A stretch of 64,000 bases of DNA. Origin: a virus. Its lineage: Duplodnaviria; Caudoviricetes. The notes beneath the pieces were generated by a model. That model saw nothing but the letters and a program-made list of their open reading frames with translations. It had not been told where the DNA came from and ran no database searches. A program made the translations under genes and the position numbers. The stretch lies in the IMG/VR virus record IMGVR_UViG_3300035698_013504, positions 64,001 through 128,000 of that record. One strand, written 5' to 3'. Below, piece by piece: positions 872-46,462 of the stretch (position 1 is its first letter; each line of letters begins with the position of its first letter).

Positions 872-1267
872 ATGAAACCGCAAACGTCGATGTCACGCGA
901 GCGTGAGATAGGTATTGGCATCGCCGACGCCATCAGCACGGGCGATCAGGGGCCGTGGTCAGCGCCTATGCGGCGCACGGGCCGCGTTACCGCAGTTACC
1001 GCGAGTGTAAAGACGCCGTCCTCAGGGGCGGCTGTCGCCATTGCGGTCGAGATTAGCCACAACAACGGTCAAACCTGGACGAGCGTATTTACCACCAACC
1101 TGACGATTGACTCCGCGGAGAGATCCTCAGTATCGGCGGCAACACCCTATGTTATCAACGCGAACGCCAGCATCTACGCCTCTGGTGGCATCCTGCGTAT
1201 CAATATCATAGCCGCGGGCACAAACACCAGCGGCTTAAGCGTGCAAATCCACACGCTGGAGGATTAA
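872..1267 (+). CDS. virion beta-sandwich protein, paralog of 1968-2465
   Basis: shares ISxxNGxTWTS(V/I)FTTxLTID...(V/I)xxxxxxxxxxxxxLRIN(I/V) with the 1968-2465 product. Confidence 0.65.
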   Translation: MKPQTSMSREREIGIGIADAISTGDQGPWSAPMRRTGRVTAVTASVKTPSSGAAVAIAVEISHNNGQTWTSVFTTNLTIDSAERSSVSAATPYVINANASIYASGGILRINIIAAGTNTSGLSVQIHTLED

Positions 1268-1269
1268 CG

Positions 1270-1968
1270 GTGGCACGGCACTTCAGAAACCCGCCGATCG
1301 TTCTAATTTGCACCCTGCTGCTACTCTTCGCAGGATGCTCTATGTTTTACGACAGTTACGTCAAAACTCCCACCGCTAGCTTCAAAGAGAAGTCTAAGAC
1401 CACGTTTCCCAGCGGCAAAGTTGAAGAGAAGGAGACGGAGACCAAAGCGGGCGGCGGGGTGTTTAAGGGTGATGCCGCGAAGAAGCTGAAGATCGGTAAG
1501 GTACAGGTAGATAAGGCCGGGGCAAAGACAGACCCATCCACTTTTGAGCAGTGGAAGCAGAAGGTTAAGGGTAAAGAGGTCTACATCCTTTACGGCGCCT
1601 GCGGACTCGTTATGGTAGTGGGTTGCGTTTTAGGGTATTATGCAGGTAGCTGGAAACTCAGCGTCGTAATCTGCGCCGGTGCAGGCGCGGGGATGGGAAC
1701 GATAGTTCTCTTCGAGGAGTACCCCTGGGTGGTTCTTCTTCCGGTTGCGTTCTTTATCGCGGCCGGAGTGTTCCTCTTGTGGCACCTCGCACGCGGTAAG
1801 TCGATTGTTCGCACCCTAGGTGTGGTCACCGGCGCCCTTGAAGACTTGGAGGACGACGACCCAAGAGCTGCTAAAGCCGCGAAGAAGAACATCCGTAGAC
1901 GTGCAGGATCGAAGGAATCGCTGGTCAAGCGCGATATCACAGTGGTTAAAAGGAAGTTGAGGATATAA
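1270..1968 (+). CDS. lipoprotein-signal membrane protein with 3 TM helices (candidate holin/spanin-like lysis protein)
   Basis: lipobox LLLLFAG-C near the N-terminus, Lys-rich soluble segment, three hydrophobic helices, basic C-terminal tail. Confidence 0.55.
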   Translation: MARHFRNPPIVLICTLLLLFAGCSMFYDSYVKTPTASFKEKSKTTFPSGKVEEKETETKAGGGVFKGDAAKKLKIGKVQVDKAGAKTDPSTFEQWKQKVKGKEVYILYGACGLVMVVGCVLGYYAGSWKLSVVICAGAGAGMGTIVLFEEYPWVVLLPVAFFIAAGVFLLWHLARGKSIVRTLGVVTGALEDLEDDDPRAAKAAKKNIRRRAGSKESLVKRDITVVKRKLRI

Positions 1969-2465
1969 TGGCTGATCGTCCGGCACTCATTTTACGCGAT
2001 ACCACTCAGTCGAGCATTAAGACGGGTGACCGCCTCGTCGACGCTGACGGCGTCCCCTACTCGCAGGGCGGTCAACGTCTTGTTGGTTTCGCGGCCAACG
2101 GCGCCTTTGCTACCGGCGATATCTCCCCGTGGTCCGGGCCGCTTTTGATTGCAGCAGCGACCGTAGATAGCGTCTCGGCATGTGTTAAGTCCGCGGCAAC
2201 GACTAATCCTGTTGAAATCGACGTGTTGATCAGCTCAGATAACGGCGCGACGTGGACATCTATCTTCACGACTACATTAACGATCGACGCCAGCGAGTTA
2301 ACGTCTACTACGGCCGCCGTACCCGCTGTAATCGATACGGCAAACAACACCATCAACGCTACAGACATGCTCCGTATTAATGTAGACGTTGCTGACGATG
2401 CAGAGGATCTTACCGTACAAATCGGTCTTGTGGACACAGCGTCGTCATCGTCGAGCTCGGCATAG
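1968..2465 (+). CDS. virion beta-sandwich protein with C-terminal Ser tail
   Basis: TAATG coupling with the upstream gene; paralog of 872-1267; ends TASSSSSSA. Confidence 0.7.
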   Translation: MADRPALILRDTTQSSIKTGDRLVDADGVPYSQGGQRLVGFAANGAFATGDISPWSGPLLIAAATVDSVSACVKSAATTNPVEIDVLISSDNGATWTSIFTTTLTIDASELTSTTAAVPAVIDTANNTINATDMLRINVDVADDAEDLTVQIGLVDTASSSSSSA

Positions 2466-2480
2466 AGGAGACTGACAGCT

Positions 2481-4982
2481 TTGTTATCATTCTTGGTCAA
2501 CTTCAGCGCAACGTCTTCCTCGAGTTCTTCGAGTAGCAACAGCTCGTCTTCAAGTAGCTGGAGTTCCTCGTCTTCGTCTAGTAGCTGGAGTTCCTCGTCT
2601 TCGTCAAGCAGCTGGAGCTCATCCTCTAGCAGCTCCTCCGACAGCAGCTCGTCGAGTAGCTGGAGTTCATCCTCTAGCAGCTCGTCTGACAGCAGCTCGT
2701 CGAGCTCGTCCTCTTGGAGTTCATCCTCGAGTAGCTCGAGTTACTCCACTGGCGCGGACCCGAACCTGGTGTTGTTCCTCCAGGCAGAAGGCGCGGATAA
2801 CGCCCGCGCGATTACCGACGACTCGATGTACGTGCATAGTGTCTACCCGCACGGTGAGCTGGACATAACAACAGATACGGCCGCCCTCGGTACCAGCGCC
2901 ATCTACTTTGACGGTAACACGCAAGAGCTCGTTACCTCACCAGACAGCACTGACTGGAACTTCAGCGGTGACTTCACCATTGAATGTTACGTGCGCTTTG
3001 AGGGCAACTCGATCGCGCAGAACCGCGGATTCCTTGCTCAGTACAAGAACAACACGAACTGTGATGCGCCGGATGCCGCATGGATGTTCTGCTTCCACTC
3101 GACTAAGGGGCTCTCATTCACCGCGTGGGATGGCGACACCGACAGTTACGTTATTCAGCAGCCCAACAACTCCGGCTGGGCCCTTAGCACATGGTACAAG
3201 ATCGCCGTTACACGCGAAGGCAATACTTGGAAGCTCTTCAGAGACACTACAGAGGTTGCTGTTGCAACCGACGCCCGCGTCCTTGAAGACGTGGCGGGTC
3301 CGCTTTACATTGGTAACTACGCTCCCACGAACAGTACGTGGAACTGGCAGGGTTACATGGACCACATCCGTGTCTGGAAGGGTGTCGCGCAGAATGAGGG
3401 TAACAGCTCCTCCAGCAGTAGCTCGTCTTACAGCGACGGTTGCCTGCCTCCTGGCTCAGGACCTTGTAACTTCTGCGATGAGGGTATCTGCGATACGTGC
3501 GACGAAGGCCCGTGCTGCACCGTCGACGAAATGGGCTGCATGTTCTGCGATCAGGGCGCTTGCTCCTCCTGTGACGAAGGCCTCTGCACTTCCTGTGACG
3601 AGGGTTCGTGTACTCGTTGTGACGAGAGTTTCTGTATGTCTTACGACGACCCGGTACTGGGCGCCTGTAACTTCTGCGATGACGGCAAGTGCTCCAGCAC
3701 CGACGAAGGTTCTTGCCGCCGCTGCGACGAGGCCGGGTGTACCCGTTGTGACGAAGCTCTCTGCACCGGCTGCGATGAAGGCCTTTGCACCGTAGCTGAC
3801 TCCGGTCGCTGCGTAGTCTGCGATGAGGGTACTTGCGCCAACTGTGACGAAGCTCTTGGTGGCGCCAACTGCTCAAGTTGTGACGAGAGTCCCTGTATCA
3901 GCTGTGATGAGACCAAGTGGAAGTGCCACAACTGTGACGAGGGTCTCTGCTCCAGGTGTGACCAGGGCGCTTGCTCCTCCTGTGATGAAGGCGCCTGCTC
4001 TAGCGCAGACGGCGGTTGCTGTACAAATACGGACGCAGGCGCATGTAACAACTGCGACGAGAACGAATGTTACCAGTGTGACGAAGTCGGCGGTTGTGCT
4101 GTCTGCGACGAGGGTTGCACTTCTTGTGACGAGGGCTGGTGTGGCACTTGTGACGAGGGTGACTGCAACCAGTGCGACGACGGCCCTTGCACTAGCTGTG
4201 ACGAAGGTCCTTGCATCAACGGCGACCAGGGCTTCTGCTCTGCGACCGACATCGGCCCGTGTCAGAGCTGTGACGAGGGTCCCTGCCTCCTCTGCGATGA
4301 GGGCGCCTGCACCAACGCCGATTACAACGAATGCTACCAGTGCGATGAAGAAGTCGGCTGCCCGTGGTGCGATGACGGCGGCTGCGACGTCTGCGATGAG
4401 GGATGTACCTACTGCGATGAAGGTCCCTGTATCAGCTGTGACGAAGCTGACTGCGACTCGTGTGACGAGGGTGACTGCGTCGCCTGTGACGAAGGCGCCT
4501 GCACTAACGGTGACAACGGCGCCTGCTCCAATTGTGACGAGGGTGTTTGCACGAACGGTGATCAGGGTACCTGTACCAACGGTGACCAGGGTGTTTGCTA
4601 CCAGTGCGATGAAAACGGCGGATGTACAGCCTGCGACGAAGGTTGCGCATCTTGTGACGAAGGCGACTGTACCAGTTGTGACGAGGGCGCTTGTAGCGTG
4701 GCTGACGCTGGCGCATGCTCGAGCTGCGACGAGGGCGCTTGTAGTTCCTGTGACCAGGGTGGTTGTGCCTCCTGCGACCAGGGCTGGTGTGGTACGTGTG
4801 ACGAAGGCGCCTGCAGCATGTGTGACGACGGACTTTGCACTTCGACGGATGAAGGTCCGTGTACCGTCTGTGACGAAGGTATGTGTGGTTCATGCGACGA
4901 GGGCTGGTGTGGTTCCTGCGACGAGGGTCCCTGCTCTCAGTGCGATGACGGCCTCTGTGCCGCCTGCGATGAATTCCCTTAA
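2481..4982 (+). CDS. poly-Ser / LamG (ConA-like) domain / 62x Cys-X3-Asp repeat protein; probable virion fibre-type protein and putative radical-SAM substrate
   Basis: TTG start with GAGGAG SD at 2465-2470; LamG hallmarks (SAIYFDG, DFTIECYV, W.KIAVTR.G, LYIG, GYMDHIRVWKG) at ~2760-3393; Cys/Asp repeat C-terminal half. Confidence 0.8.
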   Translation: MLSFLVNFSATSSSSSSSSNSSSSSSWSSSSSSSSWSSSSSSSSWSSSSSSSSDSSSSSSWSSSSSSSSDSSSSSSSSWSSSSSSSSYSTGADPNLVLFLQAEGADNARAITDDSMYVHSVYPHGELDITTDTAALGTSAIYFDGNTQELVTSPDSTDWNFSGDFTIECYVRFEGNSIAQNRGFLAQYKNNTNCDAPDAAWMFCFHSTKGLSFTAWDGDTDSYVIQQPNNSGWALSTWYKIAVTREGNTWKLFRDTTEVAVATDARVLEDVAGPLYIGNYAPTNSTWNWQGYMDHIRVWKGVAQNEGNSSSSSSSSYSDGCLPPGSGPCNFCDEGICDTCDEGPCCTVDEMGCMFCDQGACSSCDEGLCTSCDEGSCTRCDESFCMSYDDPVLGACNFCDDGKCSSTDEGSCRRCDEAGCTRCDEALCTGCDEGLCTVADSGRCVVCDEGTCANCDEALGGANCSSCDESPCISCDETKWKCHNCDEGLCSRCDQGACSSCDEGACSSADGGCCTNTDAGACNNCDENECYQCDEVGGCAVCDEGCTSCDEGWCGTCDEGDCNQCDDGPCTSCDEGPCINGDQGFCSATDIGPCQSCDEGPCLLCDEGACTNADYNECYQCDEEVGCPWCDDGGCDVCDEGCTYCDEGPCISCDEADCDSCDEGDCVACDEGACTNGDNGACSNCDEGVCTNGDQGTCTNGDQGVCYQCDENGGCTACDEGCASCDEGDCTSCDEGACSVADAGACSSCDEGACSSCDQGGCASCDQGWCGTCDEGACSMCDDGLCTSTDEGPCTVCDEGMCGSCDEGWCGSCDEGPCSQCDDGLCAACDEFP
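2514..2747 (+). repeat. poly-serine tract (~78 aa, ~70 Ser, punctuated by W/D/N)
   Basis: mixed TCN/AGY codons with local 27-nt duplications (AGTAGCTGGAGTTCCTCGTCTTCGTC twice). Confidence 0.9.
3465..4979 (+). repeat. 62 tandem, mostly 8-aa units of consensus C-x-x-C-D-E-G-x
   Basis: manual parse: every unit has Cys at position 1 and Asp at position 5; 48 of 62 also have Cys at position 4. Confidence 0.9.
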
Positions 4983-4987
4983 CCTAG

Positions 4988-6295
4988 ATGGAGACCGATG
5001 GCATGGCAACAGAAACTCCAGTGATCTCAACGATTGACTTCAACCTATCCGACAGGTGTAACCTTCGTTGTGCCTTTTGCTACACGAAGGACGGCCACGG
5101 CAATGGCCCTGACATGGAGAGGACAAAGCGCATCTTGACGTGGTACTACGATCAGCTCCGCGTCGGAATTGAAAAGAACCCGCAGCGCCGGAAGGTGGCG
5201 AGCTTGAACATCTACGGCGGCGAACCTCTTATGGAGTGGGATAGCCTGCAGGAGACTGTAGCGTGGATTCAAGAGAACCATGGCGATCTTCAGCTCAAGG
5301 CCGGTGTCGTGACCAACATGGTGCTACTTGACGAAAAGAAGCTCGACTGGCTGATGGACAACCGCATTGGTATCCACCCATCAATCGACGGGTGTGCCGC
5401 TGCGGAGGATACTCACCGCGTGTTCCCCGACGGGTCTGGCGCCAGCAAGTTTGTATACGATAATGCGCGGCGGCTGATTAGCCGTACGAAAGGCCGCAGC
5501 TGTCGTATGACGATTTCCCCAGAGACCGTGCCACATATCTTTGAGAGCATTAAGTTTCTCTGCGAGGATATTGGGTTCCACACCGTTAACGCCATTCTGG
5601 CTGGCGGCGCTGAGTGGACACCTTCGAACCTTGACGCTGTTAAGGCGCAGACCATACAAGTTACGGATTGGTGGCTTGAAAAGATGCGAGAAGGCGAGCA
5701 TTATTCCCTCTACTACTTGAGGAACATGTTCAAAGGTATACAGGACAGCAAGCGGCGGCGAAGCCTGTGTTCGTCAGGCATAAGCCGCGTTGGTGTTGAC
5801 ACCAACGGCGATCTATGGCCCTGTCACCGGTTCTGCAACCAGTCCGCGCAGTCTGAATATAAGCTGGGTACCATCGAGACAGGGTTTACCAACCTTGTGC
5901 TATACGAAAAGCTGAAGAACTACGACATTGCGGCAAGCATGAGCGAGAAGTGCAGTACGTGCCCCGCCGTTATGGGGTGCCACGCTCTCTGCCTTCACGA
6001 GATGATGGTCGCGGAGCGGGGGATGTTTACGCCGAACAATCACTACTGCTACATCTGGCCCTTCTACTGGAACGAGGCGATGCGTGCCCATTCCATTATG
6101 ACGGCCGAGAGGAACAAGCTGTACGAAAAGATGTACTGCAGCGGTGACGACAACCGCCGTCCGCAATCACGACAGCGCCCTGCGCGACAGAACCAAGGTT
6201 CGCGCCCGACGATGATGGAGAGAATGGAAAAACTCGAGGGCGAAGTGTCCGGAATCAAAAGTTGTGGGGCTTGCTCCTGCACGCCCCCGAAATAA
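4988..6295 (+). CDS. radical SAM enzyme with SPASM domain (peptide/protein maturase, PapB/CteB/anSME-like)
   Basis: CNLRCAFC (CxxxCxxC), YGGEP, SIDG; SPASM C-x12-G-x4-C (CSSG...GDLWPC) and CxxC-x5-C-x3-C (CSTCPAVMGCHALC) plus a late Cys; true start may be 5003. Confidence 0.9.
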   Translation: METDGMATETPVISTIDFNLSDRCNLRCAFCYTKDGHGNGPDMERTKRILTWYYDQLRVGIEKNPQRRKVASLNIYGGEPLMEWDSLQETVAWIQENHGDLQLKAGVVTNMVLLDEKKLDWLMDNRIGIHPSIDGCAAAEDTHRVFPDGSGASKFVYDNARRLISRTKGRSCRMTISPETVPHIFESIKFLCEDIGFHTVNAILAGGAEWTPSNLDAVKAQTIQVTDWWLEKMREGEHYSLYYLRNMFKGIQDSKRRRSLCSSGISRVGVDTNGDLWPCHRFCNQSAQSEYKLGTIETGFTNLVLYEKLKNYDIAASMSEKCSTCPAVMGCHALCLHEMMVAERGMFTPNNHYCYIWPFYWNEAMRAHSIMTAERNKLYEKMYCSGDDNRRPQSRQRPARQNQGSRPTMMERMEKLEGEVSGIKSCGACSCTPPK

Positions 6296-6890: not shown

Positions 6891-6908
6891 CGGAGAAGGG
6901 TGGTACGA

Positions 6909-7715
6909 ATGAGTTTTGCACAAGACTGTATAGACGCTGGATCTAACCTGGCTGAAGTACCTGTTATGCAGATCGGCCAGCGTACGGCCGGTACGGCAGC
7001 CCTGACGATCAAGACTGCAGATGGCGCCCCGTATGACCTTACAGGGAAGACTGTGCAATTCATCGCCAAAGAGTTGTACACGGATAACGTCTCGTACATC
7101 GACAAGGCAATGACCATCGTCAGTGCCGTTGATGGCGAGGTCACGCTTGCGTATGGCACATCTGACTCCAAGTACGCCGGGGCGTGGGTAGCCCAGGCAA
7201 CAGTTAGGGACAGCGGCACCAACGAGTATATCTACCCGGTGTACTTCTATGTACGCACCTCCCTTGACTCGTTGACCTCTGAACTCGTAGGCGTACCGAA
7301 TATCTACGAGATCCGCCTGGCTATGCGCGATACCTCGGCTGTGGATAACTATCTGCTGGATGACGTCGAGTTCAGAGATGAAGAGATTATCGCCGTGATT
7401 CGCTGGCCGATCGATCAGTGGAACGAGACACCGCCCCCGGTACAGCGTTACACTCCCGCGAGCTTCCCGTGGCGCTACCACTGGATTCGTGCGATTGTTG
7501 GACACCTGTTGGAGATCAAAGCGCACAACTATCGCCGCAACCGCATGGACTACCAGGTTCAGGGCGGCCACGTTGACGATAAGAACAAAGCCGACAGCTA
7601 CGAGAAGCGGGCTAATGAGCTCATCTCGGAGTGGAAGGAGTGGATGATGCATACCAAGCTTACACTCAATATGAACCGCGGTTGGGGTACAGTAGGCTCT
7701 GGTGTGTATCGATAG
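6909..7715 (+). CDS. head-tail adaptor/neck protein with N-terminal BppU-like domain
   Basis: N-terminal half resembles BppU (PYDLTGKTVQF, GEVTL); C-terminal half has the large-myophage adaptor pattern EIRLAMRD...NYLLDDVEF.DEEI...FPWRY; position before the neck and terminator genes. Confidence 0.55.
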   Translation: MSFAQDCIDAGSNLAEVPVMQIGQRTAGTAALTIKTADGAPYDLTGKTVQFIAKELYTDNVSYIDKAMTIVSAVDGEVTLAYGTSDSKYAGAWVAQATVRDSGTNEYIYPVYFYVRTSLDSLTSELVGVPNIYEIRLAMRDTSAVDNYLLDDVEFRDEEIIAVIRWPIDQWNETPPPVQRYTPASFPWRYHWIRAIVGHLLEIKAHNYRRNRMDYQVQGGHVDDKNKADSYEKRANELISEWKEWMMHTKLTLNMNRGWGTVGSGVYR

Positions 7716-9568: not shown

Positions 9569-12379
9569 ATGCCTAGCTACATTCTTCCGCAGGCGCTGGT
9601 GTATCAGGAGTTCAATGAAACACCTACCGCTATCACCGAGCCGTTGCGTGCCTGTATCGTCGGGCCTCAGTATGACCTGTTCAGGTACGGCACCGCCGCT
9701 GAGAAGGCCCTAACGGACCTCGGAGCCTACGACCCCTCGACGGACACGTGCTACAGTTGGCCCGGTCGCGCTGCGGGTTCGGTCGTCGACACCACGTACA
9801 CGAAGGTCTACATCGACGACGCACTTCTGCAGTACTACCATGACCCTGTGGGCAGCTTGTCCACGGTTGCGTCACCGGCCGGAACGCCTAAGAACCGTAT
9901 TCGTTCCGACACGCTGGCGTTTAAGACGGGTAACGGCACCTCACGTAGCGCCGCCTTCTATGATCGCGACGTTGCTGTTGGTGACGTGATTCAGCTGACC
10001 AGCACCGCCTGTAGCCGTACGACCTCGTTGCTTAGCACGGTCATTGGCCTTGTTGCCGACGAAGTTGCGGACGTCATCGCGAGTCCTCTTGTTTCGTCTG
10101 GTAACCAGGGCACGCTCGTTGCATCGAGCAGCATCTCGCAGTCGGCTGGTACCGTCAGTGACGTATGGGCGGCTATCGACGCGACCTCCTACCTCGGCCT
10201 CTACGATGGCGATCCGTCTGAGACGTACACGATCACCGTTGTTGAAGCTTCGGTAGCCGAAGACGCCACAACCGCCGAACTTTCCGTCGTAAGCACCAGT
10301 GGAAACGATGACGTGGCTCAGGTTACACCCGCCGCCTTCGGTTCGCCGACGACGATCGGTACTCGTGGCTTGACGGTCACCTTTGACAACTCTGGCGCCG
10401 CTGGCGGTAGCTCGAGTTCGAGTTCTTCGGGCGATACCTACCAGGACGACTTCATCGTCGGCCAGGTTTGGGTTGCTGCTGTTCAGGAAACATACGCTGC
10501 CCCCGTCGTGGCCTCGAGTGGCGACTACACCGGCTCTGCCGACGATGTCTACATCATCGAATGCACGACTGGCGGGTACTTCGCAGGTACAAAACCTCAG
10601 GTTACCTGCTACAACGCTAGTGGTACGGACATGAGTGGTCCCACGACAGTGACGACCGCCGTTGCCTTCGCCGCAGGCACCCAGGGCGTGACAGCCACTA
10701 TCACCGGCTCGTACATGAGCAAGGGTGACATGTGGACCGTCGCGGTCACTGCTGCTACGTCTGGCCCCTTCAGAACGCTCGTGTTGGCGAACAACCTCAC
10801 GGACGAGATGTTGGGCGAGTGCAGCGGATGGGATACAGGCAGCTCCAGCTCTTCGAGCTCTAGCTACTCCCCTGGCGATGTAGACCTCAAGCTCTACATC
10901 AAGAAGGATATCCAGGTCACCGAGCAACGCACAGGTGTCCCCGGTACGTACAACTGGACTCAGAGCGCTACCCAGATCTGCACGGAAGATGGAATCACCG
11001 CCTACGACTCCACGTGGGTCAACGGCTCAACGCTTCTTCCGCTGACAGTACAGGGTGGTACCGTCTACGTTGAGTACCGAGCACTTGTTCCGATCGGCGC
11101 CTCGTCTGTCGGTAGTGTCATCGACGTTAGTGAAATTCCGGCCGCTGTCGGTACGATCGACGTTGATAACCCCATCTCTTACGGGGTGTACAAGGCCGTT
11201 AGCAACGCAAACGGTACACCCGTTAAGTATCTCAACATCGCCACCGACGACACTGCCGGTTGGACGAATGCACTTGAGATCCTCAACGGTACGGATCAGG
11301 TCTACGGCCTTGTGCCGGTGACGTGGGACGAAACCGTTCAGGACCTCTTTGCCGCTCACGTGGCCACGATGTCTGCCGCGACCGAAGCCAAATGGCGCAT
11401 GACATGGCTCAGTACTCCCATGGCGTCCACCTACGGCCTCGTCACGACGAACGCAAGCGCCACCACCCTGTTGGCCACGATCGAGGACGATCCTGATGCC
11501 GCGGGTACCCAGTACACACTCCTGACGGGTGTTAACAGCGAGTTCCGCACCGACGCCGTTCGTGCCGGTGACACGGTTCGCTGCAAATACTCCGGTGACG
11601 GTTGGAGTGGTGTCTCTTATGAGGAGTATCTGGTTGACAGCGTTGTCAACGAAGACACCCTTCGCCTTTACAGTGGCCCCTCAACCCCGACGGCTACGCC
11701 CTCTAAGATTGAGATTTGGCGTACCCGTACGAAGGATGAGCAGGCTAGCTACATCGCCACTAAGAGTGGAGCTTTCGCCTCCAGCCGTGTCATTAACGTA
11801 TGGCCGGACTACCCGATCGTTAGTAGCGTATCGGTGGCCGGTTACTACTTGTGCGCCGCGCTGGCCGGGTTGAAGTCCGGTGTTGTGCCTCACCAGGGTC
11901 TGACGGACGTCCAAGTCGCTGGCTTTGACGACATGACTCGCACCACCGAGTACTTCACGTATGCACAGCTCAACACAATGGCCGCTGCTGGCACTTGGAT
12001 CGTTACGCAGGACCCCGACGTTGGTACCGTCTACACTCGTCACCAGTTGACGACGGATATGACGAGTACCAATACGAAGGAACTCAGCGTCACGACCAAC
12101 GTGGACAGCATCAGCTACATTATGAAGTCTGCGTTAGAGCCCTATATCGGCCGAGGTAACGTGACGGACACGATGCTTTCGTTGATTCGTAAAGAGGTTA
12201 CCGACGCACTTGAATATCTGCAGAACAATATTACGGTTGACCGTCTTGGGGCACAACTCAATATCGGATCAATTCGTACCATTGCTCAGCACGCCACACT
12301 GTTGGACAGAATCACGGTCATCGTTGACCTTGAATTGCCGTACCCGCTTAACAACATCGAGGTTCACCTGGTCGTATAA
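9569..12379 (+). CDS. contractile tail sheath protein (936 aa, with inserted domains)
   Basis: AGGAGG SD; C-terminal sheath signature (RHQLTT...ELSVTTNVDSISY...YIGRGNV...PYPLNNIEVHLVV). Confidence 0.85.
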   Translation: MPSYILPQALVYQEFNETPTAITEPLRACIVGPQYDLFRYGTAAEKALTDLGAYDPSTDTCYSWPGRAAGSVVDTTYTKVYIDDALLQYYHDPVGSLSTVASPAGTPKNRIRSDTLAFKTGNGTSRSAAFYDRDVAVGDVIQLTSTACSRTTSLLSTVIGLVADEVADVIASPLVSSGNQGTLVASSSISQSAGTVSDVWAAIDATSYLGLYDGDPSETYTITVVEASVAEDATTAELSVVSTSGNDDVAQVTPAAFGSPTTIGTRGLTVTFDNSGAAGGSSSSSSSGDTYQDDFIVGQVWVAAVQETYAAPVVASSGDYTGSADDVYIIECTTGGYFAGTKPQVTCYNASGTDMSGPTTVTTAVAFAAGTQGVTATITGSYMSKGDMWTVAVTAATSGPFRTLVLANNLTDEMLGECSGWDTGSSSSSSSSYSPGDVDLKLYIKKDIQVTEQRTGVPGTYNWTQSATQICTEDGITAYDSTWVNGSTLLPLTVQGGTVYVEYRALVPIGASSVGSVIDVSEIPAAVGTIDVDNPISYGVYKAVSNANGTPVKYLNIATDDTAGWTNALEILNGTDQVYGLVPVTWDETVQDLFAAHVATMSAATEAKWRMTWLSTPMASTYGLVTTNASATTLLATIEDDPDAAGTQYTLLTGVNSEFRTDAVRAGDTVRCKYSGDGWSGVSYEEYLVDSVVNEDTLRLYSGPSTPTATPSKIEIWRTRTKDEQASYIATKSGAFASSRVINVWPDYPIVSSVSVAGYYLCAALAGLKSGVVPHQGLTDVQVAGFDDMTRTTEYFTYAQLNTMAAAGTWIVTQDPDVGTVYTRHQLTTDMTSTNTKELSVTTNVDSISYIMKSALEPYIGRGNVTDTMLSLIRKEVTDALEYLQNNITVDRLGAQLNIGSIRTIAQHATLLDRITVIVDLELPYPLNNIEVHLVV

Positions 12380-23942: not shown

Positions 23943-24728
23943 ATGGCTAAAACACAGATAAATACATGGTTTGGAGGCAGCGCACCTAAGGCGTCCGCGC
24001 CAGCTGCTCCGCCCGCACGATCAGATCTGGACGTTCAGTTTGACGCATGGAAGGCCAAGCCTAATATGCAAACACTGAACAGCTTGCTCGACGCGTCTAT
24101 GCCAACCATCAATGCGGCGGCTACATCTTATGCGCGCGGCCAGCAGGATCAAGTCATGTCTCAAGCGAAGAAGTTGGCCATCAAAGCCTTCCACAAATAC
24201 CGACCGGACAGCGGCACCCAGCTTAGAACTTACATCATGACCCAGCTTCAGCCGCTGTACCGAGTGGCGCACAAGCGTCGGTCGAGCGTGCGTATTCCAG
24301 AGCAGGCCTCGCGCGAGTTGTACAGCTCAGATCTTGTGCGTAAAGAGTTGACTAGTGAACTTGGTCGGGAACCCTCAGATGACGAGCTTGCTGACCGCGT
24401 AGGCATTTCAAGGTCGCGCATGAGGTTCCTGGACAGGTATAATCGACCTGAGCGGTATGAAGGCTCGGCGTTTGATGAACAGGGCGTGCCGGTGTTCGTA
24501 GGCACAGAAGACGCCAGCGCTGAGCAGATCTGGATTGAATTCGTGTACCACGACCTAGGCCCGATCGACAAGAAGATCCTCGAGTGGAAGACCGGGTTGA
24601 ACGGTAAGCCGATTCACGCAACACAGGAGATCGCAAAGAGGCTCAACATGACACCGTCCGCCGTCTCTCAGCGAACGGCCAAGATCCAGGCGAAACTGTC
24701 GGAGGCTCCTGATCAGTGGGAACAGTAG
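23943..24728 (+). CDS. RNA polymerase sigma-70 family factor (FliA/SigF-like, regions 2-4)
   Basis: KAFHKYRPDSGTQLRTYI (region 2), ELGREPSDDELADRVGIS (region 3), QEIAKRLNMTPSAVSQ (region 4 HTH). Confidence 0.85.
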   Translation: MAKTQINTWFGGSAPKASAPAAPPARSDLDVQFDAWKAKPNMQTLNSLLDASMPTINAAATSYARGQQDQVMSQAKKLAIKAFHKYRPDSGTQLRTYIMTQLQPLYRVAHKRRSSVRIPEQASRELYSSDLVRKELTSELGREPSDDELADRVGISRSRMRFLDRYNRPERYEGSAFDEQGVPVFVGTEDASAEQIWIEFVYHDLGPIDKKILEWKTGLNGKPIHATQEIAKRLNMTPSAVSQRTAKIQAKLSEAPDQWEQ

Positions 24729-25150: not shown

Positions 25151-25635
25151 TGGCAAGCTCTGACTACACAAACCGACTTCATGACCTACTCATCTTCCAG
25201 GGCGCTAGTCCTGAAGGCAATGTCCCTATCACCATAGCCATTGGCGACGTGGCCAGCATCACGACCGGAGCGCAAAAGGTTGCGCAGCTATTCTACAGCA
25301 TGCTTCTGACTCAAACAGGCACAGTAGCCGGGGAGCCCACACTGGGCACGGATTTCCTCTACGAGTTGCAGCGCGGCGGTTTACGTACTGAGTCAGATGT
25401 TCAAGCAAAATTCGGCTATGCCGTAACCCAGATACTTGATAGCATGTCGGTACGGTGGGAATCTGAAGAGGTCAACGGAGAGATCCCGACGATTTCGCCC
25501 GACGAACGCCTGACTAATATCGAGCTAATCAACTTCTCGATCGAAGTAGATAAGCTGATGCTGCGAGTGCGCCTGACAACAGAAGCAGGCGACAGTCGAG
25601 AGTACTTCTATCCTGTAACGGTAGCGATCACATGA
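25150..25635 (+). CDS. baseplate wedge subunit gp25-like
   Basis: KVAQ...LLTQTG...EPTLGTD...DERL.NIEL pattern of the GPW/gp25 family. Confidence 0.7.
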   Translation: MASSDYTNRLHDLLIFQGASPEGNVPITIAIGDVASITTGAQKVAQLFYSMLLTQTGTVAGEPTLGTDFLYELQRGGLRTESDVQAKFGYAVTQILDSMSVRWESEEVNGEIPTISPDERLTNIELINFSIEVDKLMLRVRLTTEAGDSREYFYPVTVAIT

Positions 25636-27278
25636 GCACGACCCTATTTGACATTGACCAACTGTCGGACGCTGAACTTGAACAGGCACGCTCCTTTCTG
25701 CGCGAGACACTCGGCAACGAGTATCCTAGCCTGGACCTCAAGACGGGCAGCGTCTGGAACGATCTATTGATCCGTATCGCCGCGATCTTCCACGCGTTGG
25801 AGCAGCAAGATATTGAGGCTCTACAGCGTAGCATGTCGCTTGCGGCTATAAACGCCGACCCGACGCTTGCTGACCCTGACTACGTCAACGGCGTTATGTC
25901 CAACTTCCTCATCGAACGTGATGATGGCGCTAAGGCAACCGGATATGTGCGAGTCATCCTCAACGCGCTACAGACAACAATTATCAACGATGGCACTACG
26001 TTCACGACGGGTGAATACGTATTTACCACTGAAGCAACCTATGTGGGTGTTACGGATGCCACGGCCGTACTAAGGTCTACGGAGCGACTGATTGAGCTGC
26101 GTAGCGACGGTAACTACGAGTTCACGATCCCGGTCGTCGCCGCCGCTGAAGGTACAGGGTACAACATCGAGAAGGGTACTGACCTGACGATGAGCCCGGC
26201 GCCTACGCCACTAGTACTCAGTGAGGCCGCCGTAGACTTTGAGAGCGGGCTAGCGCAGGAGACAAACGCAGCGTTGACAGCAAAGCTGAGCAACGGTATC
26301 ACCGCTAAGGTGCTTTCCGGCCGCCAGCACATCGCGGCCCTTCTGCGCGAGCAGCTGGCCTCCATCGCCTCAATCTCCATCATCGGGTTCGGTGACCCCG
26401 AGATGCTTCGTGATAAGCACAACGTCATGCAGCTTGCGGTGGGCGGTAAGTCTGATATCTACGTACAGACACAGCCCGCACCTATCAGGAAGACTCTAAC
26501 GGTTACGGCAACACTGGTCGACGCCGATACGAAAGAGTGGCAGTTCGGCATAGCGCGGGACGACGCTCCTGGGTTCCTGCTGGTGTCATCCGTTTACGAA
26601 AGCTCTAGTTCCGGTGGATCATTGGAGTTGTCATATCAGGCTCGTGCCGCTGATATCTCCCAAGAGAGCAGCGAGTTTGTCCCCTACATTGACACGACTA
26701 CGTCTGTGGAAAGCGCATACTCGCGATACCAGACAAGTGTATTGCGTTTCCTGGACCCGAGTACAGCCGCTACAGTCGTCGTCGGAGACACAGCGACGTA
26801 CTACTGTGACGTTTGGTACCTCCCAGGTGTTGACACACTACAGGATTACATCAATCAGCGCGGCGTTCACACTCCGCAAGCGGACTACCTTTTGCGTGCG
26901 CCGATCCCGCTGTGGTCGACCGTGTCTGCACTCGTCAAGTACAAGAATGGCACGGTACAGCCCAGTGAGTCAGCGGTACAGCAGGCTGTCCTCGACCAGG
27001 TTAATGGTGTAGGCTTTGGTTCCGGCATCCTGGAGACTTCCGACATCATCGCCGCGATCAAGGATGTGATCGGGGAAGAGTCATACGTTTCCTCGCCGAT
27101 CGAGATCTCAGCAAGGCTCTACAAGCCGGACGGCACCTCCGTGCTTTACCGGTCTAACACAGCCATCAACATCCCGAATGACTTTACGAACAGCATCTCG
27201 TCGAGGACAGCGATGTTCCTCATCGTGGCGTCCAACATCTCGATCACGTTCGAGACGGTGGACACGGTTGAAGTGTAA
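25632..27278 (+). CDS. baseplate J-like wedge protein
   Basis: DLKTGS, ER..G.KATG.V, GTGYNI, ETNAAL, GGKSDIYV: baseplate J pattern; follows gp25. Confidence 0.8.
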   Translation: MSTTLFDIDQLSDAELEQARSFLRETLGNEYPSLDLKTGSVWNDLLIRIAAIFHALEQQDIEALQRSMSLAAINADPTLADPDYVNGVMSNFLIERDDGAKATGYVRVILNALQTTIINDGTTFTTGEYVFTTEATYVGVTDATAVLRSTERLIELRSDGNYEFTIPVVAAAEGTGYNIEKGTDLTMSPAPTPLVLSEAAVDFESGLAQETNAALTAKLSNGITAKVLSGRQHIAALLREQLASIASISIIGFGDPEMLRDKHNVMQLAVGGKSDIYVQTQPAPIRKTLTVTATLVDADTKEWQFGIARDDAPGFLLVSSVYESSSSGGSLELSYQARAADISQESSEFVPYIDTTTSVESAYSRYQTSVLRFLDPSTAATVVVGDTATYYCDVWYLPGVDTLQDYINQRGVHTPQADYLLRAPIPLWSTVSALVKYKNGTVQPSESAVQQAVLDQVNGVGFGSGILETSDIIAAIKDVIGEESYVSSPIEISARLYKPDGTSVLYRSNTAINIPNDFTNSISSRTAMFLIVASNISITFETVDTVEV

Positions 27279-40713: not shown

Positions 40714-42888
40714 ATGGCGGAAGACAACATCCTGGCGCGTATCCACGCGGCAACACAGGAGCTCAGCACAAACGGGGAGCTAGACAGGCGGATACACGAA
40801 GAGCTTACTCCCGGCATCAAGACACGGGTAATAGGTCCGTGCGCTTACAGGGGCAACGAGAAAGAGGCGCGAGAGAAACCGTGTTGTGGGGGTAAGAAAA
40901 CACGGGAAATCCTTTTTGCCTGTAGTCACCCAGAAATTGCAGCCGGGGAATCCTGGTCCGCTATCTGTCAGCGCTGTAGGTTCATATCCCCGGTCGCAAG
41001 CCAACCAAACAGCCTGCTGGGCGCCAAACGCATACTTGTTATGCCGTGGGGAGACAAGGGATCTATCCGCAACCTAATCCAAGCCCTCGACAAAATGTCG
41101 TTTGACGTGTCGGTTCTCCAACGTGGTGGAGGTGAGTGGAAGGACGCCGCGGTTGAGAAACTGAAGAACGAGCACTTCGACCTTGTTGTAACCTGGCAAC
41201 GCCTTTATAGCATGGGCTGGTGCGAAGAGGTCAACAAGATCATTGACGCGCGGAACATCCCTAAGCTCATCTTGGACTTTGGCGTGTGGGACCACTACAA
41301 GTCGGCTATCGTCGACCCGGTTGGTGATAACGCCGAATCTGCGGTAGCCGGTAACTTCATTCGGTTACTGCAAAACCCCTTGCAAGCCAAAGCTACAACA
41401 GATGCAATGATACGGTTACCGGCAATGGTTGATACGGTTAAGGCGTCGGCCGAGATAGGGGCGACGTATCTGGACGATGCAAACCTGTCCGGTCTTCCTA
41501 AAGACTTTATGCTTCTGCTTCTGCAGCGTACAGGAGACCAAGTACTTCTACGAGACGCTCCAAAGTCTAGGCAGGATCAAAGCCGTGTCGCCCGAGATAT
41601 CATTGCTGAGGCAAGACTCGCAGGCAAGTTTGTGGTTGTCAAGCCCCACCCGTTTGATAAGCCTTTAGAGGGCGTAGAGGCATCTGGGCCGCATCACCGG
41701 CTAGTAACAAACTTGACGATGGGAGATCAGAACACCGCGGTACTGTCGCATCTGCTGCTTAACTGCGAGCGGATGATCACCGTGAACTCCACAACAATCT
41801 TTATGGCCCAGTTGCTAGGCGTACCTGTATTCACGCTTGGTAAAGGCTGGTTTTCTGGGAACAGAGTTGCAAATGAACCCCCGCTGATTCGCGGTGCGGT
41901 TCTTGATAAGAATGCAGTAGACGTAGAGTACGCCAAGAAGTTCTTCGCGTTTATGTATAGCCGACAACTAACAATCGGTGAGTGTGGCGAGCCGGAAGCC
42001 GTGCTCAGGATCCTGAAGCTCATGCACCCGTCTTTGCTAGAGTCTTCGGAGGTGCAATCAAGCTCGTCGCCAGAGCCTCCAAAGGTTCCGACGCCGCAAA
42101 TCACGATGCCTACTATCAACGCCCAGGCCTTGTCGAAGACCCTAAAGCCCGCCCCACGCTCTGAGATGAAAGACGTTACCGCCATGCTGTTGACATGGAA
42201 GAGAGACTCCGCGCAGCAAGTAGTTAACTCTTTGCGCGACTCGGGCGTACAGAACATCTGGATATGGTGCAATGAGGGCGCAGCTGTACCTGATGGGGTC
42301 GATGTGTCCATCGTGTCTTCTACCAACCTAGGTAACTGGCAGCGTTTTGCGATGGCGCCGCTGGTTCCAACTTCACACATCCTTTATTGCGACGACGACT
42401 GTACGATTACGCCTGCCGGTATTCAGGCCCTTTCCAAGGGTATGGCGACGTTCCCCAACAACGTACTTGGTTTATGGGGGTGGGCGTTTAACCCGTCGTT
42501 CGAACACTACCGCCAGCGGGAGGAATTTCATAGCCACACGCTGCAGGGACATCAAGCGATGTATGCCGATATGATCTCCCCGTGTGGAATGCTCGCGCCG
42601 CGTATCGCTATCCAAGAGGCTATGGGTAAGGTTAACTACTGGAACACAGCCCTGAAGATATTTGGCGACCACACGTTGGACGATATGACACTTTGCCTGG
42701 CGATGTCGAAATGCGGATGTGGCAGGCCCGCTGTCGTACAGGGTGAGGGGGCCGGACTCAAGTTTATCAAAGACACCGCCCCCGCGTCTTCACTCGCTCT
42801 GAAACCGGGCCGTCGAGAGATACTATACACAGAGACACTTCCGGCGTTCCGCGGAATCGGATGGAGTCCGATTAAAGAGGGGAAGTAA
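40714..42888 (+). CDS. multidomain glycosyltransferase: Cys-rich N-terminus + capsule-biosynthesis (KpsS-like GT-B) domain + GT-A domain
   Basis: VVKPHP, ITVNSTT...LLGVPVFTLG (KpsS/KpsC-like); YCDDD DxD motif in the C-terminal domain. Confidence 0.7.
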   Translation: MAEDNILARIHAATQELSTNGELDRRIHEELTPGIKTRVIGPCAYRGNEKEAREKPCCGGKKTREILFACSHPEIAAGESWSAICQRCRFISPVASQPNSLLGAKRILVMPWGDKGSIRNLIQALDKMSFDVSVLQRGGGEWKDAAVEKLKNEHFDLVVTWQRLYSMGWCEEVNKIIDARNIPKLILDFGVWDHYKSAIVDPVGDNAESAVAGNFIRLLQNPLQAKATTDAMIRLPAMVDTVKASAEIGATYLDDANLSGLPKDFMLLLLQRTGDQVLLRDAPKSRQDQSRVARDIIAEARLAGKFVVVKPHPFDKPLEGVEASGPHHRLVTNLTMGDQNTAVLSHLLLNCERMITVNSTTIFMAQLLGVPVFTLGKGWFSGNRVANEPPLIRGAVLDKNAVDVEYAKKFFAFMYSRQLTIGECGEPEAVLRILKLMHPSLLESSEVQSSSSPEPPKVPTPQITMPTINAQALSKTLKPAPRSEMKDVTAMLLTWKRDSAQQVVNSLRDSGVQNIWIWCNEGAAVPDGVDVSIVSSTNLGNWQRFAMAPLVPTSHILYCDDDCTITPAGIQALSKGMATFPNNVLGLWGWAFNPSFEHYRQREEFHSHTLQGHQAMYADMISPCGMLAPRIAIQEAMGKVNYWNTALKIFGDHTLDDMTLCLAMSKCGCGRPAVVQGEGAGLKFIKDTAPASSLALKPGRREILYTETLPAFRGIGWSPIKEGK

Positions 42889-42893
42889 CAGCT

Positions 42894-45342: not shown

Positions 45343-45372
45343 AGACCGCGGACAGTTTACGACCTAAGATAC

Positions 45373-45401
45373 TTGACTCGTAGCGACTGCGTTGCTAAAC
45401 T
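45373..45401 (+). promoter_or_regulatory. sigma70-type promoter
   Basis: TTGACT-N17-TAAACT with extended -10 TG at 45393-45394, upstream of the GT9 gene. Confidence 0.55.
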
Positions 45402-45425
45402 CAGAGGAACTAAACCCCATAGGAG

Positions 45426-46433: not shown

Positions 46434-46449
46434 CAACGTGTTACAGAAA
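46431..46449. promoter_or_regulatory. conserved intergenic imperfect palindrome, copy 3
   Basis: TAGCAACGTGTTACAGAAA, identical to 48926-48944. Confidence 0.55.
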
Positions 46450-46462
46450 CAGGAGAACACCG

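What the first reader, a model, noticed from the sequence alone, without database searches (positions are those of the whole stretch)
3465..4979. The repeat conserves Cys1 and Asp5, not the CxxC pair, and has higher-order blocks
Seen: all 62 units keep C at position 1 and D at position 5. Position 4 is Cys in only 48 units and is A, G, T, V or Y in 14 (e.g. CTNGD, CSSTD, CSVAD). Codons vary, so selection is at the protein level. A block CYQCDE-x-x-G...CxxCDEG-CxxCDEG (with a 7-aa unit) recurs three times, which indicates block duplication. Inference: a pure metal-binding CxxC array should conserve both Cys; invariant C...D spacing fits enzymatic C-to-D cross-linking, leaving ~48 free Cys for disulfides or metal/Fe-S binding along a strongly acidic rod.
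Basis: partly seen in the sequence, partly recalled or inferred. Interest (0 to 1): 0.75.

Follow-up and report, generated by a model that had tools for sequence, protein, structure and literature searches.

The report
Phage fibre protein with Cys-Asp staples
A large salt-lake phage encodes a surface-type protein ending in 62 eight-residue units that always keep one cysteine and one aspartate four residues apart, with an enzyme gene next to it related to those that weld cysteine to aspartate in bacterial peptides, so the virus probably staples this protein dozens of times with non-reducible bonds.

Summary
The protein has 62 units with Cys1 62/62 and Asp5 62/62. Position 4 is Cys in 48 units and T/A/G/V/Y in 14. 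Codons vary.

The pattern extends to relatives. In 32 non-redundant homologous arrays (729 units), a leave-one-position-out test gives Asp5 410/412, Cys1 396/399 and Cys4 384/559. One homologue has Cys4 in only 23% of units.

Length variation always falls after position 7, so C-x3-D is the fixed element.

The gene 5 nt downstream is a radical SAM/SPASM enzyme. Its best family matches are PapB (Cys-S to Asp-Cβ thioethers in CX3D motifs) and then QhpD (Cys-Asp/Glu thioethers). It lacks the leader-binding N-terminal domain.

Array and enzyme co-occur as a two-gene module in otherwise unrelated phage contigs.

Best reading: leader-independent, repeat-directed installation of about 62 Cys1-Asp5 thioether rings on a virion-appendage protein (confidence 0.62). 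The chemistry is inferred, not shown.

The 'higher-order block' is real as a landmark spaced exactly 88 aa apart, three times. Block duplication beyond the landmark is not statistically supported.

I found no published description.

This scan has flagged analogous phage Cys-repeat plus radical-SAM modules with other motifs on other DNA. Other first-stage notes flagged this same stretch.

The parts
2466..2470 (+). AGGAG Shine-Dalgarno-like site 10 nt before the TTG start of the array protein. It lies directly after the in-frame TAG stop (2463-2465) of the preceding gene.
   Evidence: Sequence read.
2481..4982 (+). Gene for the 833-aa array protein. Order of parts: short N-terminus, Ser/Trp tract, LamG-like domain, Ser linker, 62-unit C-x3-D array running to the C-terminus.
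   Evidence: ORF list; Pfam and PHROG hits on the LamG part; homologous arrays in other phage contigs.
2511..2747 (+). Poly-Ser tract punctuated by W/N/D (aa 11-89). Probably a flexible, possibly glycosylated, linker.
   Evidence: Translation. Homologues carry poly-Ser, PS, or Thr-rich linkers next to their arrays.
2922..3386 (+). Laminin_G_3 / concanavalin-like domain (aa 148-302).
   Evidence: Pfam PF13385, E 1.7e-14. PHROG matches to 'virion structural protein' families.
3465..4979 (+). Array of 62 units with consensus C-[TS]-[SN]-[C/G/T/A]-D-[E/Q]-G-x (aa 329-833). It holds 112 Cys, 75 Asp and 45 Glu; net charge is about -111.
4068..4115 (+). First landmark: the 9-aa unit starting CYQCDE plus the 7-aa unit CxxCDEG.
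4332..4403 (+). Second landmark, 264 nt after the first: 9-aa unit, one 8-aa unit, then the 7-aa unit.
4596..4643 (+). Third landmark, 264 nt after the second.
4988..6295 (+). Radical SAM/SPASM enzyme, 435 aa, PapB/QhpD-like, with no N-terminal RRE. It starts 5 nt after the array gene's stop. An alternative start is ATG 5003, preceded by GGAG.
   Evidence: Pfam; NCBIfam; PDB sequence and fold matches to CteB; sequence. No terminator-like site lies between the two genes.
5057..5080 (+). [quoted passage not shown]
   Evidence: Nearly invariant in the 33-sequence alignment A1.
5768..6049 (+). SPASM domain with seven invariant Cys: C261, C279, C322, C325, C331, C335 and C354.
   Evidence: Invariant columns of A1. 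Pfam SPASM and TIGR04085 hits.

Best explanation
The array protein is a late-expressed, virion-appendage-type protein of a 201-kb phage. Its 62 C-x3-D octads are the substrate of the enzyme encoded immediately downstream.

That enzyme is a PapB/QhpD-like radical SAM/SPASM thioether synthase. In the reducing host cytoplasm it uses SAM and its [4Fe-4S] clusters to abstract a hydrogen from the beta-carbon of Asp5. It then joins that carbon to the sulfur of Cys1 of the same unit. This closes a five-residue ring (a ranthionine link) in each octad, up to 62 in a row.

The enzyme has no leader-binding (RRE) domain and the arrays have no common leader. Recognition is therefore most likely of the repeat motif itself (C-x3-D-[E/Q]-G).

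The product would be a non-reducible, protease-resistant, strongly acidic stalk or filament attached through Ser/Thr/Pro linkers to adhesion-type domains. The variable Cys4 is not needed for the staple. It may add disulfides or metal sites.

Shown here: the motif statistics, the enzyme family resemblance, the gene linkage and the co-occurrence. Inferred: that the enzyme acts on the array, which atoms are joined, leader independence, virion location and the mechanical role.
For: (1) Within the window, Cys1 and Asp5 are 62/62 and Cys4 is 48/62.

(2) In 32 non-redundant homologous arrays (729 units), scoring each site with the tested position left out gives Asp5 410/412, Cys1 396/399 and Cys4 384/559 (smaller set). 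L053 keeps Cys4 in only 23% of 53 units, yet keeps every Cys1 and Asp5.

(3) Units of 7-13 aa differ only after position 7. The C-to-D spacing is therefore fixed, while the spacing from D to the next C varies.

(4) When position 4 is not Cys, positions 3-4 are most often Asn-Gly, a turn-forming pair inside the proposed ring.

(5) The downstream enzyme's best NCBIfam hit is the PapB family ranthipeptide maturase (E 4.7e-50). The second is QhpD (E 5e-43). PapB is also the best match across all 33 homologues.

(6) PapB links the Cys thiol to the Asp beta-carbon in CX3D motifs (PMC9413430). QhpD makes Cys-Asp S-Cbeta and Cys-Glu S-Cgamma bonds (PMC8326336).

(7) The CX3CX2C motif and seven SPASM Cys are invariant. 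The model is confident (pLDDT 88.7) and its best solved fold is the thioether synthase CteB.

(8) Linkage: the two genes are 5 nt apart with no terminator between them.

(9) All five IMG/VR contigs with an enzyme homologue of at least 37% identity carry an array next to it.

(10) In the reverse direction, five of six IMG/VR contigs with two consecutive CxxCD[EQ]G units carry the enzyme. The sixth is a 5.7-kb fragment.

(11) Four further enzyme-anchored metagenome contexts all have adjacent arrays.

(12) Of 26 array loci from the metagenome scan, 19 have the enzyme in the fetched stretch and one has it elsewhere on the same contig. The other six are short contigs or have the array at a contig edge.

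(13) Gene order occurs both ways. Apart from one glycosyltransferase, one other ORF that matches a single locus (L002) and antisense-frame shadows of the pair, the pair is the only thing shared between the whole 201-kb genome and 18 such loci.

(14) Protein-scale ranthionine installation has a recent precedent, CrpC/CrpA (PMC13692751).
Against: No chemistry was measured. The enzyme scores well below the curated PapB cutoff (170.7 against 340 bits), so it is a sister group whose product could differ.

Two array proteins (P0058, P0059) have no radical SAM gene within 6 kb. One enzyme homologue (L002/L003) has no array within 6 kb. Adjacency is therefore common but not universal.

With an 8-residue period, Asp5 is also four residues before the next Cys1. 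Only the roughly 15% irregular units separate the two registers.

PapB is described as relying on a leader and RRE (PMC12373016), and both are absent here.

The pattern-based scans were ascertained on CxxCD[EQ]G pairs. The enzyme-anchored loci were not.

The acidic composition could partly reflect a salt-lake origin.
Confidence: 0.62

Rival explanations
1. The enzyme does modify the array, but with different chemistry or partners. Examples: a sactionine (S to alpha-carbon) link; oxidation of Cys1 to formylglycine as by anaerobic sulfatase maturases, with Asp5 acting as a recognition residue at +4 as Arg does in C-x-P-x-R; or a link from Asp5 to the Cys1 of the next unit.
For: The enzyme falls below every curated family cutoff. 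Like anSME it has only a core plus SPASM, with no RRE, and anSME is the second-best fold match. Related SPASM enzymes make many different bonds (one search list; PMC8326336). With period 8, D-x3-C is as frequent as C-x3-D in regular units (56 against 66).
Against: PapB (171 bits) and QhpD (147 bits) clearly outscore anSME (73 bits) and the sactisynthase RumMC (64 bits). Indels always leave C-x3-D intact and vary D-to-next-C. Arrays begin with Cys and end shortly after Asp. Asp, the natural PapB/QhpD acceptor, is the invariant partner, and Glu never replaces it.
Confidence: 0.17
2. The array is an unmodified metal-binding or disulfide-braced acidic repeat (Zn, Fe or Ca sites, or a disulfide-laced solenoid). 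The radical SAM enzyme has another substrate or role.
For: There are 48 CxxC pairs and 120 acidic residues, and Cys/Asp can ligate metals. Some array proteins lack a nearby enzyme gene. The source is a salt lake, where acidic surfaces are common.
Against: The CxxC pair is not conserved: Cys4 is present in 23-100% of units per protein, 61% overall. No Pfam zinc-finger or metallothionein family matches. AlphaFold2 predicts no fold for the array (pLDDT 37.5). The tight two-way co-occurrence with the enzyme, in genomes that share almost nothing else, is unexplained by this reading.
Confidence: 0.12
3. The repeat is not a functional protein segment. It would be a chance open frame over tandem DNA, or a decaying gene split by the TAG at 2463.
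For: Several long alternative frames are open across the repeat. An in-frame TAG separates it from a preceding gene that ends in poly-Ser.
Against: The same frame carries a significant LamG domain. Codons at the invariant positions vary, and unit nucleotide identity is only 57%. Homologous arrays at 37-60% protein identity exist in dozens of contigs. An AGGAG site and TTG start follow the TAG.
Confidence: 0.02

Closest known systems
PapB / PapA (freyrasin ranthipeptide, Paenibacillus polymyxa; NCBIfam NF047865)
   Same: It is a radical SAM/SPASM enzyme and the best family match. Its substrate motif is Cys-X3-Asp repeated in tandem. Its known product is a Cys-S to Asp-Cbeta thioether within each motif (PMC9413430).
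   Different: The score is half the family cutoff. PapA is a short leader-plus-core peptide with six motifs, and PapB is described as docking the leader on an RRE. Here there are 62 motifs in 8-aa units on an 833-aa multidomain phage protein. There is no leader (some homologous arrays start at residue 3-8) and no N-terminal domain on the enzyme.
QhpD / QhpC (quinohemoprotein amine dehydrogenase gamma subunit; TIGR03906)
   Same: It is the second-best family match. It makes Cys-Asp S-Cbeta and Cys-Glu S-Cgamma thioethers inside a protein rather than a natural-product peptide (PMC8326336).
   Different: The score is far below the cutoff (147 against 453 bits). The QhpD profile aligns only from its position 88, so its N-terminal part is missing here. 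QhpC has a few cross-links in a small enzyme subunit, not a repeat array. There is no dehydrogenase context.
CrpC / CrpA of Methanococcus voltae (TIGR04463)
   Same: A radical SAM/SPASM enzyme installs ranthionine links on a large Cys-rich repeat protein encoded next to it (PMC13692751).
   Different: The system is archaeal and cellular. It has a 17-residue repeat with C-x-x-Q/D, a leader-like N-terminal 47 residues and a predicted RRE on CrpC. TIGR04463 matches only 17 of 33 phage enzymes, and weakly.
CteB / SCIFF (PDB 5WGG, 5WHY; TIGR03974)
   Same: It is the best solved-structure match by sequence (E 1.4e-21) and by fold (TM about 0.69). It is a thioether-forming SPASM enzyme with an open iron site on an auxiliary cluster.
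   Different: CteB carries an N-terminal RRE that binds the leader, and the phage enzyme aligns only from CteB residue 94. The SCIFF acceptor is Thr, not Asp.
CXXX-repeat and other Cys-repeat targets of phage radical SAM enzymes (TIGR04115 system)
   Same: These are phage or bacterial Cys-repeat proteins paired with SPASM enzymes. Distant phage relatives found here carry such other repeats (L009, L010, L016-L030). Earlier notes of this scan describe similar modules in tail-fibre regions.
   Different: They have other motifs with no invariant Asp, and other enzyme subfamilies (23-29% identity). None gives as specific a chemical prediction as C-x3-D with a PapB/QhpD-like enzyme.

Membership tests
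PapB family ranthipeptide maturase (NF047865) | HMM score at or above the curated cutoff (340 bits) | tested here: not met
   170.7 bits, E 4.7e-50. It is the best of all NCBIfam models but below the cutoff. It is also the best family across the 33 homologues.
PapB family ranthipeptide maturase (NF047865) | CX3CX2C radical SAM motif plus seven-Cys SPASM domain | tested here: met
   C24/C28/C31 are nearly invariant. C261, C279, C322, C325, C331, C335 and C354 are invariant in A1. Pfam SPASM and TIGR04085 match.
PapB family ranthipeptide maturase (NF047865) | Cognate substrate with tandem Cys-X3-Asp motifs encoded nearby | tested here: met
   There are 62 C-x3-D units in the gene 5 nt upstream. 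Linkage recurs in other contigs.
PapB family ranthipeptide maturase (NF047865) | Leader peptide recognised by an RRE domain | tested here: not met
   The enzyme aligns from residue 9-13 to position 88-94 of the QhpD and SCIFF profiles and of CteB. About 35 of 46 homologues start at the catalytic core. Arrays have no shared leader, and some start at residue 3-8.
PapB family ranthipeptide maturase (NF047865) | Product carries Cys-S to Asp-Cbeta thioethers | not testable with these tools
   This needs mass spectrometry or NMR of the modified protein.
QhpD (TIGR03906) | HMM score at or above the cutoff (453 bits) | tested here: not met
   147.4 bits. Whether QHNDH subunit genes lie nearby was not tested: no search for them was run.
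Anaerobic sulfatase maturase (TIGR03942) | HMM score at or above the cutoff, and a substrate motif C/S-x-P-x-R | tested here: not met
   73.3 against 349 bits. Position 3 of the units is never Pro and position 5 is always Asp.
Ranthipeptide RiPP class | Short ribosomal precursor with leader and core, released as a peptide | tested here: not met
   The substrate is an 833-aa multidomain protein. Arrays are N-terminal, central or C-terminal in homologues. No protease or exporter lies in the window's operon.
CxxC zinc-finger or metallothionein-type metal arrays (e.g. DnaJ CxxCxGxG) | Both Cys of each CxxC pair conserved, and a match to a family model | tested here: not met
   Cys4 is 48/62 here and 384/559 in homologues. 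The only Pfam hit on the protein is Laminin_G_3.
Phage virion structural protein | Encoded in the structural module, with domains typical of fibres or decorations, and detected in particles | tested here: inconclusive
   The LamG domain matches PHROG 'virion structural protein' families. BppU_N (6900-7715) and Baseplate_J (25632-27278) lie downstream on the same strand. There are no proteomic data.

The most novel reading that the evidence does not exclude
A family of phages builds part of a virion appendage as a 'poly-ranthionine' polymer. It consists of tens of consecutive five-residue Cys-Asp thioether rings written on a full-size structural protein. The writer is a leader-independent, RRE-less PapB-like radical SAM enzyme that reads the repeat motif itself. 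This would be the first enzymatically thioether-stapled virus structural protein. It would also be a naturally processive, leaderless stapling enzyme of biotechnological use.
Probability: 0.5. Interest if true: 0.85.

Novelty: new variant of a known kind. Interest (0 to 1): 0.72.

Why it matters
Radical SAM thioether stapling is known from small bacterial peptides (ranthipeptides and sactipeptides), from one enzyme subunit (QhpC), and since 2026 from one archaeal Cys-rich protein. If confirmed here, the same chemistry is used by viruses to harden or shape a structural protein, at a scale of about 62 rings per chain and apparently without a leader peptide.

That would add a new kind of virion maturation. 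It would explain a rare, unannotated repeat family, found in fewer than about 20 sequence clusters among 1.84 billion representatives. It would also supply an enzyme that recognises a short portable tag (C-x3-D-[E/Q]-G) for serial cross-linking, which peptide engineers using PapB currently achieve only with an attached leader.

The finding also gives a sharply testable prediction: a mass loss of 2 Da and one fewer alkylatable Cys per unit.

Tried and rejected
AlphaFold2 on the first 264 residues of the array, with a 10-row alignment of homologous arrays, gave no fold (mean pLDDT 37.5). No geometry for Cys1 and Asp5 could be read, and no fold search was run on it.

The ESM Atlas feature search on the array gave no usable hit.

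NCBIfam has no model matching the array protein at E <= 0.1.

The GTDB genome-contig scan with the enzyme alignment found no relative, using one narrow pattern only.

tblastn against isolated phage genomes found only distant enzymes of at most 27% identity (human faecal contigs and Campylobacter CP220-like phages).

Exhaustive phmmer of the array returned 66 hits. Most below the top few are unrelated period-8 tandem repeats (EFDEGVRK, TDAGTVSQ and others) and were discarded.

The test for duplication of 11-unit blocks by shuffling unit order was not significant.

Five literature searches found no paper on radical-SAM or thioether modification of phage structural proteins. The library lacks most subscription journals.

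Sequencing-run search: no RNA holder was listed, and no reads were laid.

Complex prediction was not used, because enzyme-substrate pairs are a poor case for that test.

I considered read-through of the TAG at 2463 joining the upstream gene to the array protein. It is not needed, because an AGGAG site and TTG start follow the stop, but it is not excluded.

I did not build a tree against authentic PapB and QhpD sequences, because none could be fetched by reference.
Full report
**What is there**

The window lies in a single 200,903-bp contig of 55% G+C. The same strand carries phage structural genes: a BppU_N-like baseplate protein at 6900-7715 and a Baseplate_J protein at 25632-27278. Public runs labelled salt lake metagenome hold the enzyme gene. 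Two runs from two studies hold more than half of its sampled words.

The finding lies in ORF 2481-4982 (+), 833 aa. It starts at a TTG 10 nt after an AGGAG site. Its parts in order are:
- a Ser/Trp tract, aa 11-89;
- a Laminin_G_3 / concanavalin-like domain, aa 148-302 (Pfam E 1.7e-14), with PHROG matches to 'virion structural protein' families;
- a short Ser linker;
- the repeat, from aa 329 to the C-terminus.

**Check of the observation**

A greedy parse gives 62 units.

| Position | Residues |
|---|---|
| 1 | Cys 62/62 |
| 4 | Cys 48, Thr 4, Ala 4, Gly 4, Val 1, Tyr 1 |
| 5 | Asp 62/62 |
| 6 | Glu 42 |
| 7 | Gly 47 |

Fifty-three units have 8 residues and the rest have 7-12. Every length change lies after position 7.

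Codons at the invariant positions are mixed (TGC 37 / TGT 25; GAC 44 / GAT 18). Units are on average only 57% identical in DNA. Conservation therefore acts on the protein.

C-x3-D occurs 66 times in the array, against 16.6 +/- 3.3 in shuffles. The array has 112 Cys, 75 Asp, 45 Glu and only 9 Lys+Arg, so its net charge is about -111.

The higher-order feature is a 9-residue unit starting CYQCDE followed by a 7-residue CxxCDEG unit. It occurs at aa 530, 618 and 706, exactly 88 aa apart, with different codons in each copy. Beyond that landmark the 11-unit blocks are not significantly more alike than shuffled unit orders (66 of 300 permutations reach the observed match). I accept the recurrence and treat block duplication as weakly supported. 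Nine plus seven residues restores the 16-residue register, which suggests a tolerated or required punctuation every 11 units.

**The neighbour**

Five nucleotides after the stop begins a 435-aa radical SAM/SPASM protein at 4988-6295. No terminator-like site lies between the genes.

| NCBIfam model | Score | Curated cutoff (bits) |
|---|---|---|
| PapB family ranthipeptide maturase | 170.7 bits, E 4.7e-50 | 340 |
| QhpD | 147.4 bits | 453 |
| nif11-type maturase | 137.2 bits | 518.7 |
| CXXX-repeat maturase | 115.1 bits | 350 |
| SCIFF maturase | 114.4 bits | 425 |
| anSME | 73.3 bits | 349 |

All scores are below the curated cutoffs. PapB is also the best family across 33 homologues.

PapB links the Cys thiol to the Asp beta-carbon within CX3D motifs of PapA (PMC9413430). 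QhpD makes Cys-Asp S-Cbeta and Cys-Glu S-Cgamma bonds (PMC8326336). The two nearest characterised families thus both make exactly the bond that an invariant Cys...Asp pair suggests.

The alignment of 33 homologues (27-55% identity to the window's enzyme) keeps the CX3CX2C motif and seven SPASM cysteines. An AlphaFold2 model is confident (pLDDT 88.7). Its best solved neighbour is the thioether synthase CteB (TM about 0.69), followed by anSME and ChlB.

The enzyme aligns to CteB only from residue 94, and to the QhpD and SCIFF profiles from positions 88-92. About 35 of 46 homologues likewise begin at the catalytic core. The N-terminal leader-binding RRE described for CteB, and invoked for PapB, is absent.

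**Relatives of the array**

Enzyme-anchored searches and array-anchored searches converge on one family (for the enzyme; for the array). In this family the array is a portable module.
- It can be N-terminal (P0058, L055, L047), central (L045, P0061, P0062) or C-terminal (window, P0059, P0060, L051).
- It can also be split into several arrays by poly-Thr or PS linkers (L046, L055).
- It is attached to unrelated globular parts.
- Several arrays begin at residue 3-8 of the protein, so there is no common leader.

To test conservation without circularity, I scored octads with a matrix built from the window's units while leaving out the tested position. In 32 non-redundant homologous arrays the left-out position 5 is Asp in 410/412 sites. 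Position 1 is Cys in 396/399. Position 4 is Cys in only 384/559, with Gly in 71 (first set).

Per protein, Cys4 ranges from 23% (L053, 53 units) to 100% of units, and is 61% overall. Where position 4 is not Cys, positions 3-4 are most often Asn-Gly, a turn-forming pair. Unit spacing is 8 in 613 of 690 steps, and the variation again lies outside C-x3-D.

**Linkage**

- In IMG/VR, all five contigs whose enzyme is at least 37% identical carry an array beside it.
- Five of the six contigs that contain two consecutive CxxCD[EQ]G units carry the enzyme. The sixth is a 5.7-kb fragment.
- Four more enzyme-anchored metagenome contexts all have an adjacent array.
- In the metagenome pattern scan, 26 of 28 loci contain arrays. 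Nineteen have the enzyme in the fetched stretch and one has it elsewhere on the same contig. The other six are short contigs or have the array at a contig edge.
- Both gene orders occur.
- I compared all ORFs of the 201-kb genome with 18 such loci. The array, the enzyme and their antisense-frame shadows are the only consistent matches. Beyond them, one glycosyltransferase matches two loci and one other ORF matches a single locus (L002).
- The exceptions are two array proteins with no radical SAM gene within 6 kb and one enzyme with no array within 6 kb.

**Interpretation**

The most economical reading is that the enzyme staples each octad by a Cys1-S to Asp5-Cbeta thioether. This gives up to 62 serial five-residue rings. 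The enzyme would recognise the repeat itself rather than a leader.

Cys4 is dispensable for this and may add disulfides or metal sites.

The product would be a non-reducible, protease-resistant, very acidic stalk on an adhesin-like, linker-rich, probably virion-exposed protein.

The steps that are shown and the steps that are inferred are listed under Best explanation. The main rivals are:
- other chemistry on the same array (0.17);
- an unmodified metal or disulfide repeat with an unrelated enzyme (0.12);
- a non-functional frame (0.02).

**Comparison and novelty**

This system works like PapB/PapA and QhpD/QhpC. In scale it resembles the archaeal CrpC/CrpA system published in 2026. It fails membership of each family on score. 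It also fails the leader/RRE feature.

The array matches no Pfam or NCBIfam model. It is rare: 66 phmmer hits among 1.84 billion representatives, most of them spurious.

I found no paper describing radical-SAM thioether modification of a phage structural protein, with the library's limits noted.

Earlier notes of this scan describe analogous phage modules with other Cys repeats on other DNA. Other first-stage notes flag this same stretch. They are unchecked leads, not support.

I class this as a new variant of a known kind.

Noticed in passing
window 1968-2480: The preceding gene (1968-2465, 165 aa) ends in a poly-Ser run. It is in the same frame as the array gene, separated only by TAG (2463-2465) plus five codons, and the array protein itself starts with poly-Ser. 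This looks like one domain-linker-domain gene split by a stop. An AGGAG site directly after the TAG argues for re-initiation at TTG 2481, but read-through is not excluded.
   Followed up: partly
window 872-1267 and 1968-2465: Two small proteins share a motif (NG-x-TWTS-x-FTT-x-LTID). They look like paralogues flanking a third gene. Neither has a Pfam match.
   Followed up: no
window 1270-1968: This 232-aa protein has a lipoprotein-like N-terminus (hydrophobic stretch ending LFAGC) and later hydrophobic segments. It sits inside the structural operon and has no family match.
   Followed up: no
window 6143-6292 (enzyme aa 386-435): The enzyme ends in a low-confidence basic Arg/Gln-rich tail with a small Cys cluster (CGACSC). 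Homologues P0003 and P0007 have a similar basic stretch and Cys cluster, followed by an extra domain of about 140 aa.
   Followed up: partly
window 40714-47800; L053 13530-16385; L055 2791-8759: Clusters of glycosyltransferase and methyltransferase genes (Capsule_synth, GT2, GT9, Methyltransf_24) occur in the window and next to the enzyme-array pair in two other contigs. Together with the Ser/Thr/Pro linkers around the arrays, this hints at glycosylated appendages.
   Followed up: partly
window 23943-24728: A sigma-70-like protein (Sigma70_r3, E 5e-9, with weak region 4) is encoded among baseplate-region genes.
   Followed up: no
L056 11204-11743 (-): A Peptidase_C39 gene, typical of bacteriocin leader cleavage, lies directly beside the enzyme homologue in one contig, on the opposite strand.
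   Followed up: no
L047 5850-7136 and L050 9000-10187 (same IMG/VR contig): One phage contig encodes two different array proteins with an almost identical 16-residue N-terminus (MACV-T/A-NDLVYGGPC). One lies next to the enzyme. The other lies elsewhere and carries a non-repeat C-terminal domain.
   Followed up: partly
L014 207-1067; L015 6530-7978; L009 5915-6247; L010 484-891; L016-L030 about 10800-11700: More distant phage SPASM enzymes (22-29% identity) sit beside other Cys repeats. These are CxxCDxD arrays (L014, L015), CxCN-type repeats (L009, L010), and pairs of Cys-rich ORFs of about 120 aa in many contigs from one IMG metagenome sample (3300045988). Pairing of Cys-repeat proteins with such enzymes seems widespread in phages.
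   Followed up: partly
genome outside the window (C1 166184-167107, 170713-171756, 174229-175872): Three further ORFs in the same phage genome carry a CxxxCxxC motif near the N-terminus. They are possible additional radical SAM enzymes. They were found by a crude motif scan only.
   Followed up: no
window 4149-4163, 4437-4451, 4461-4475, 4653-4667: In four units position 8 is Asp, so Cys4 also sits in a C-x3-D motif (CDEGD or CDEAD) that overlaps the main one. This is reminiscent of the nested motifs described for PapA.
   Followed up: no
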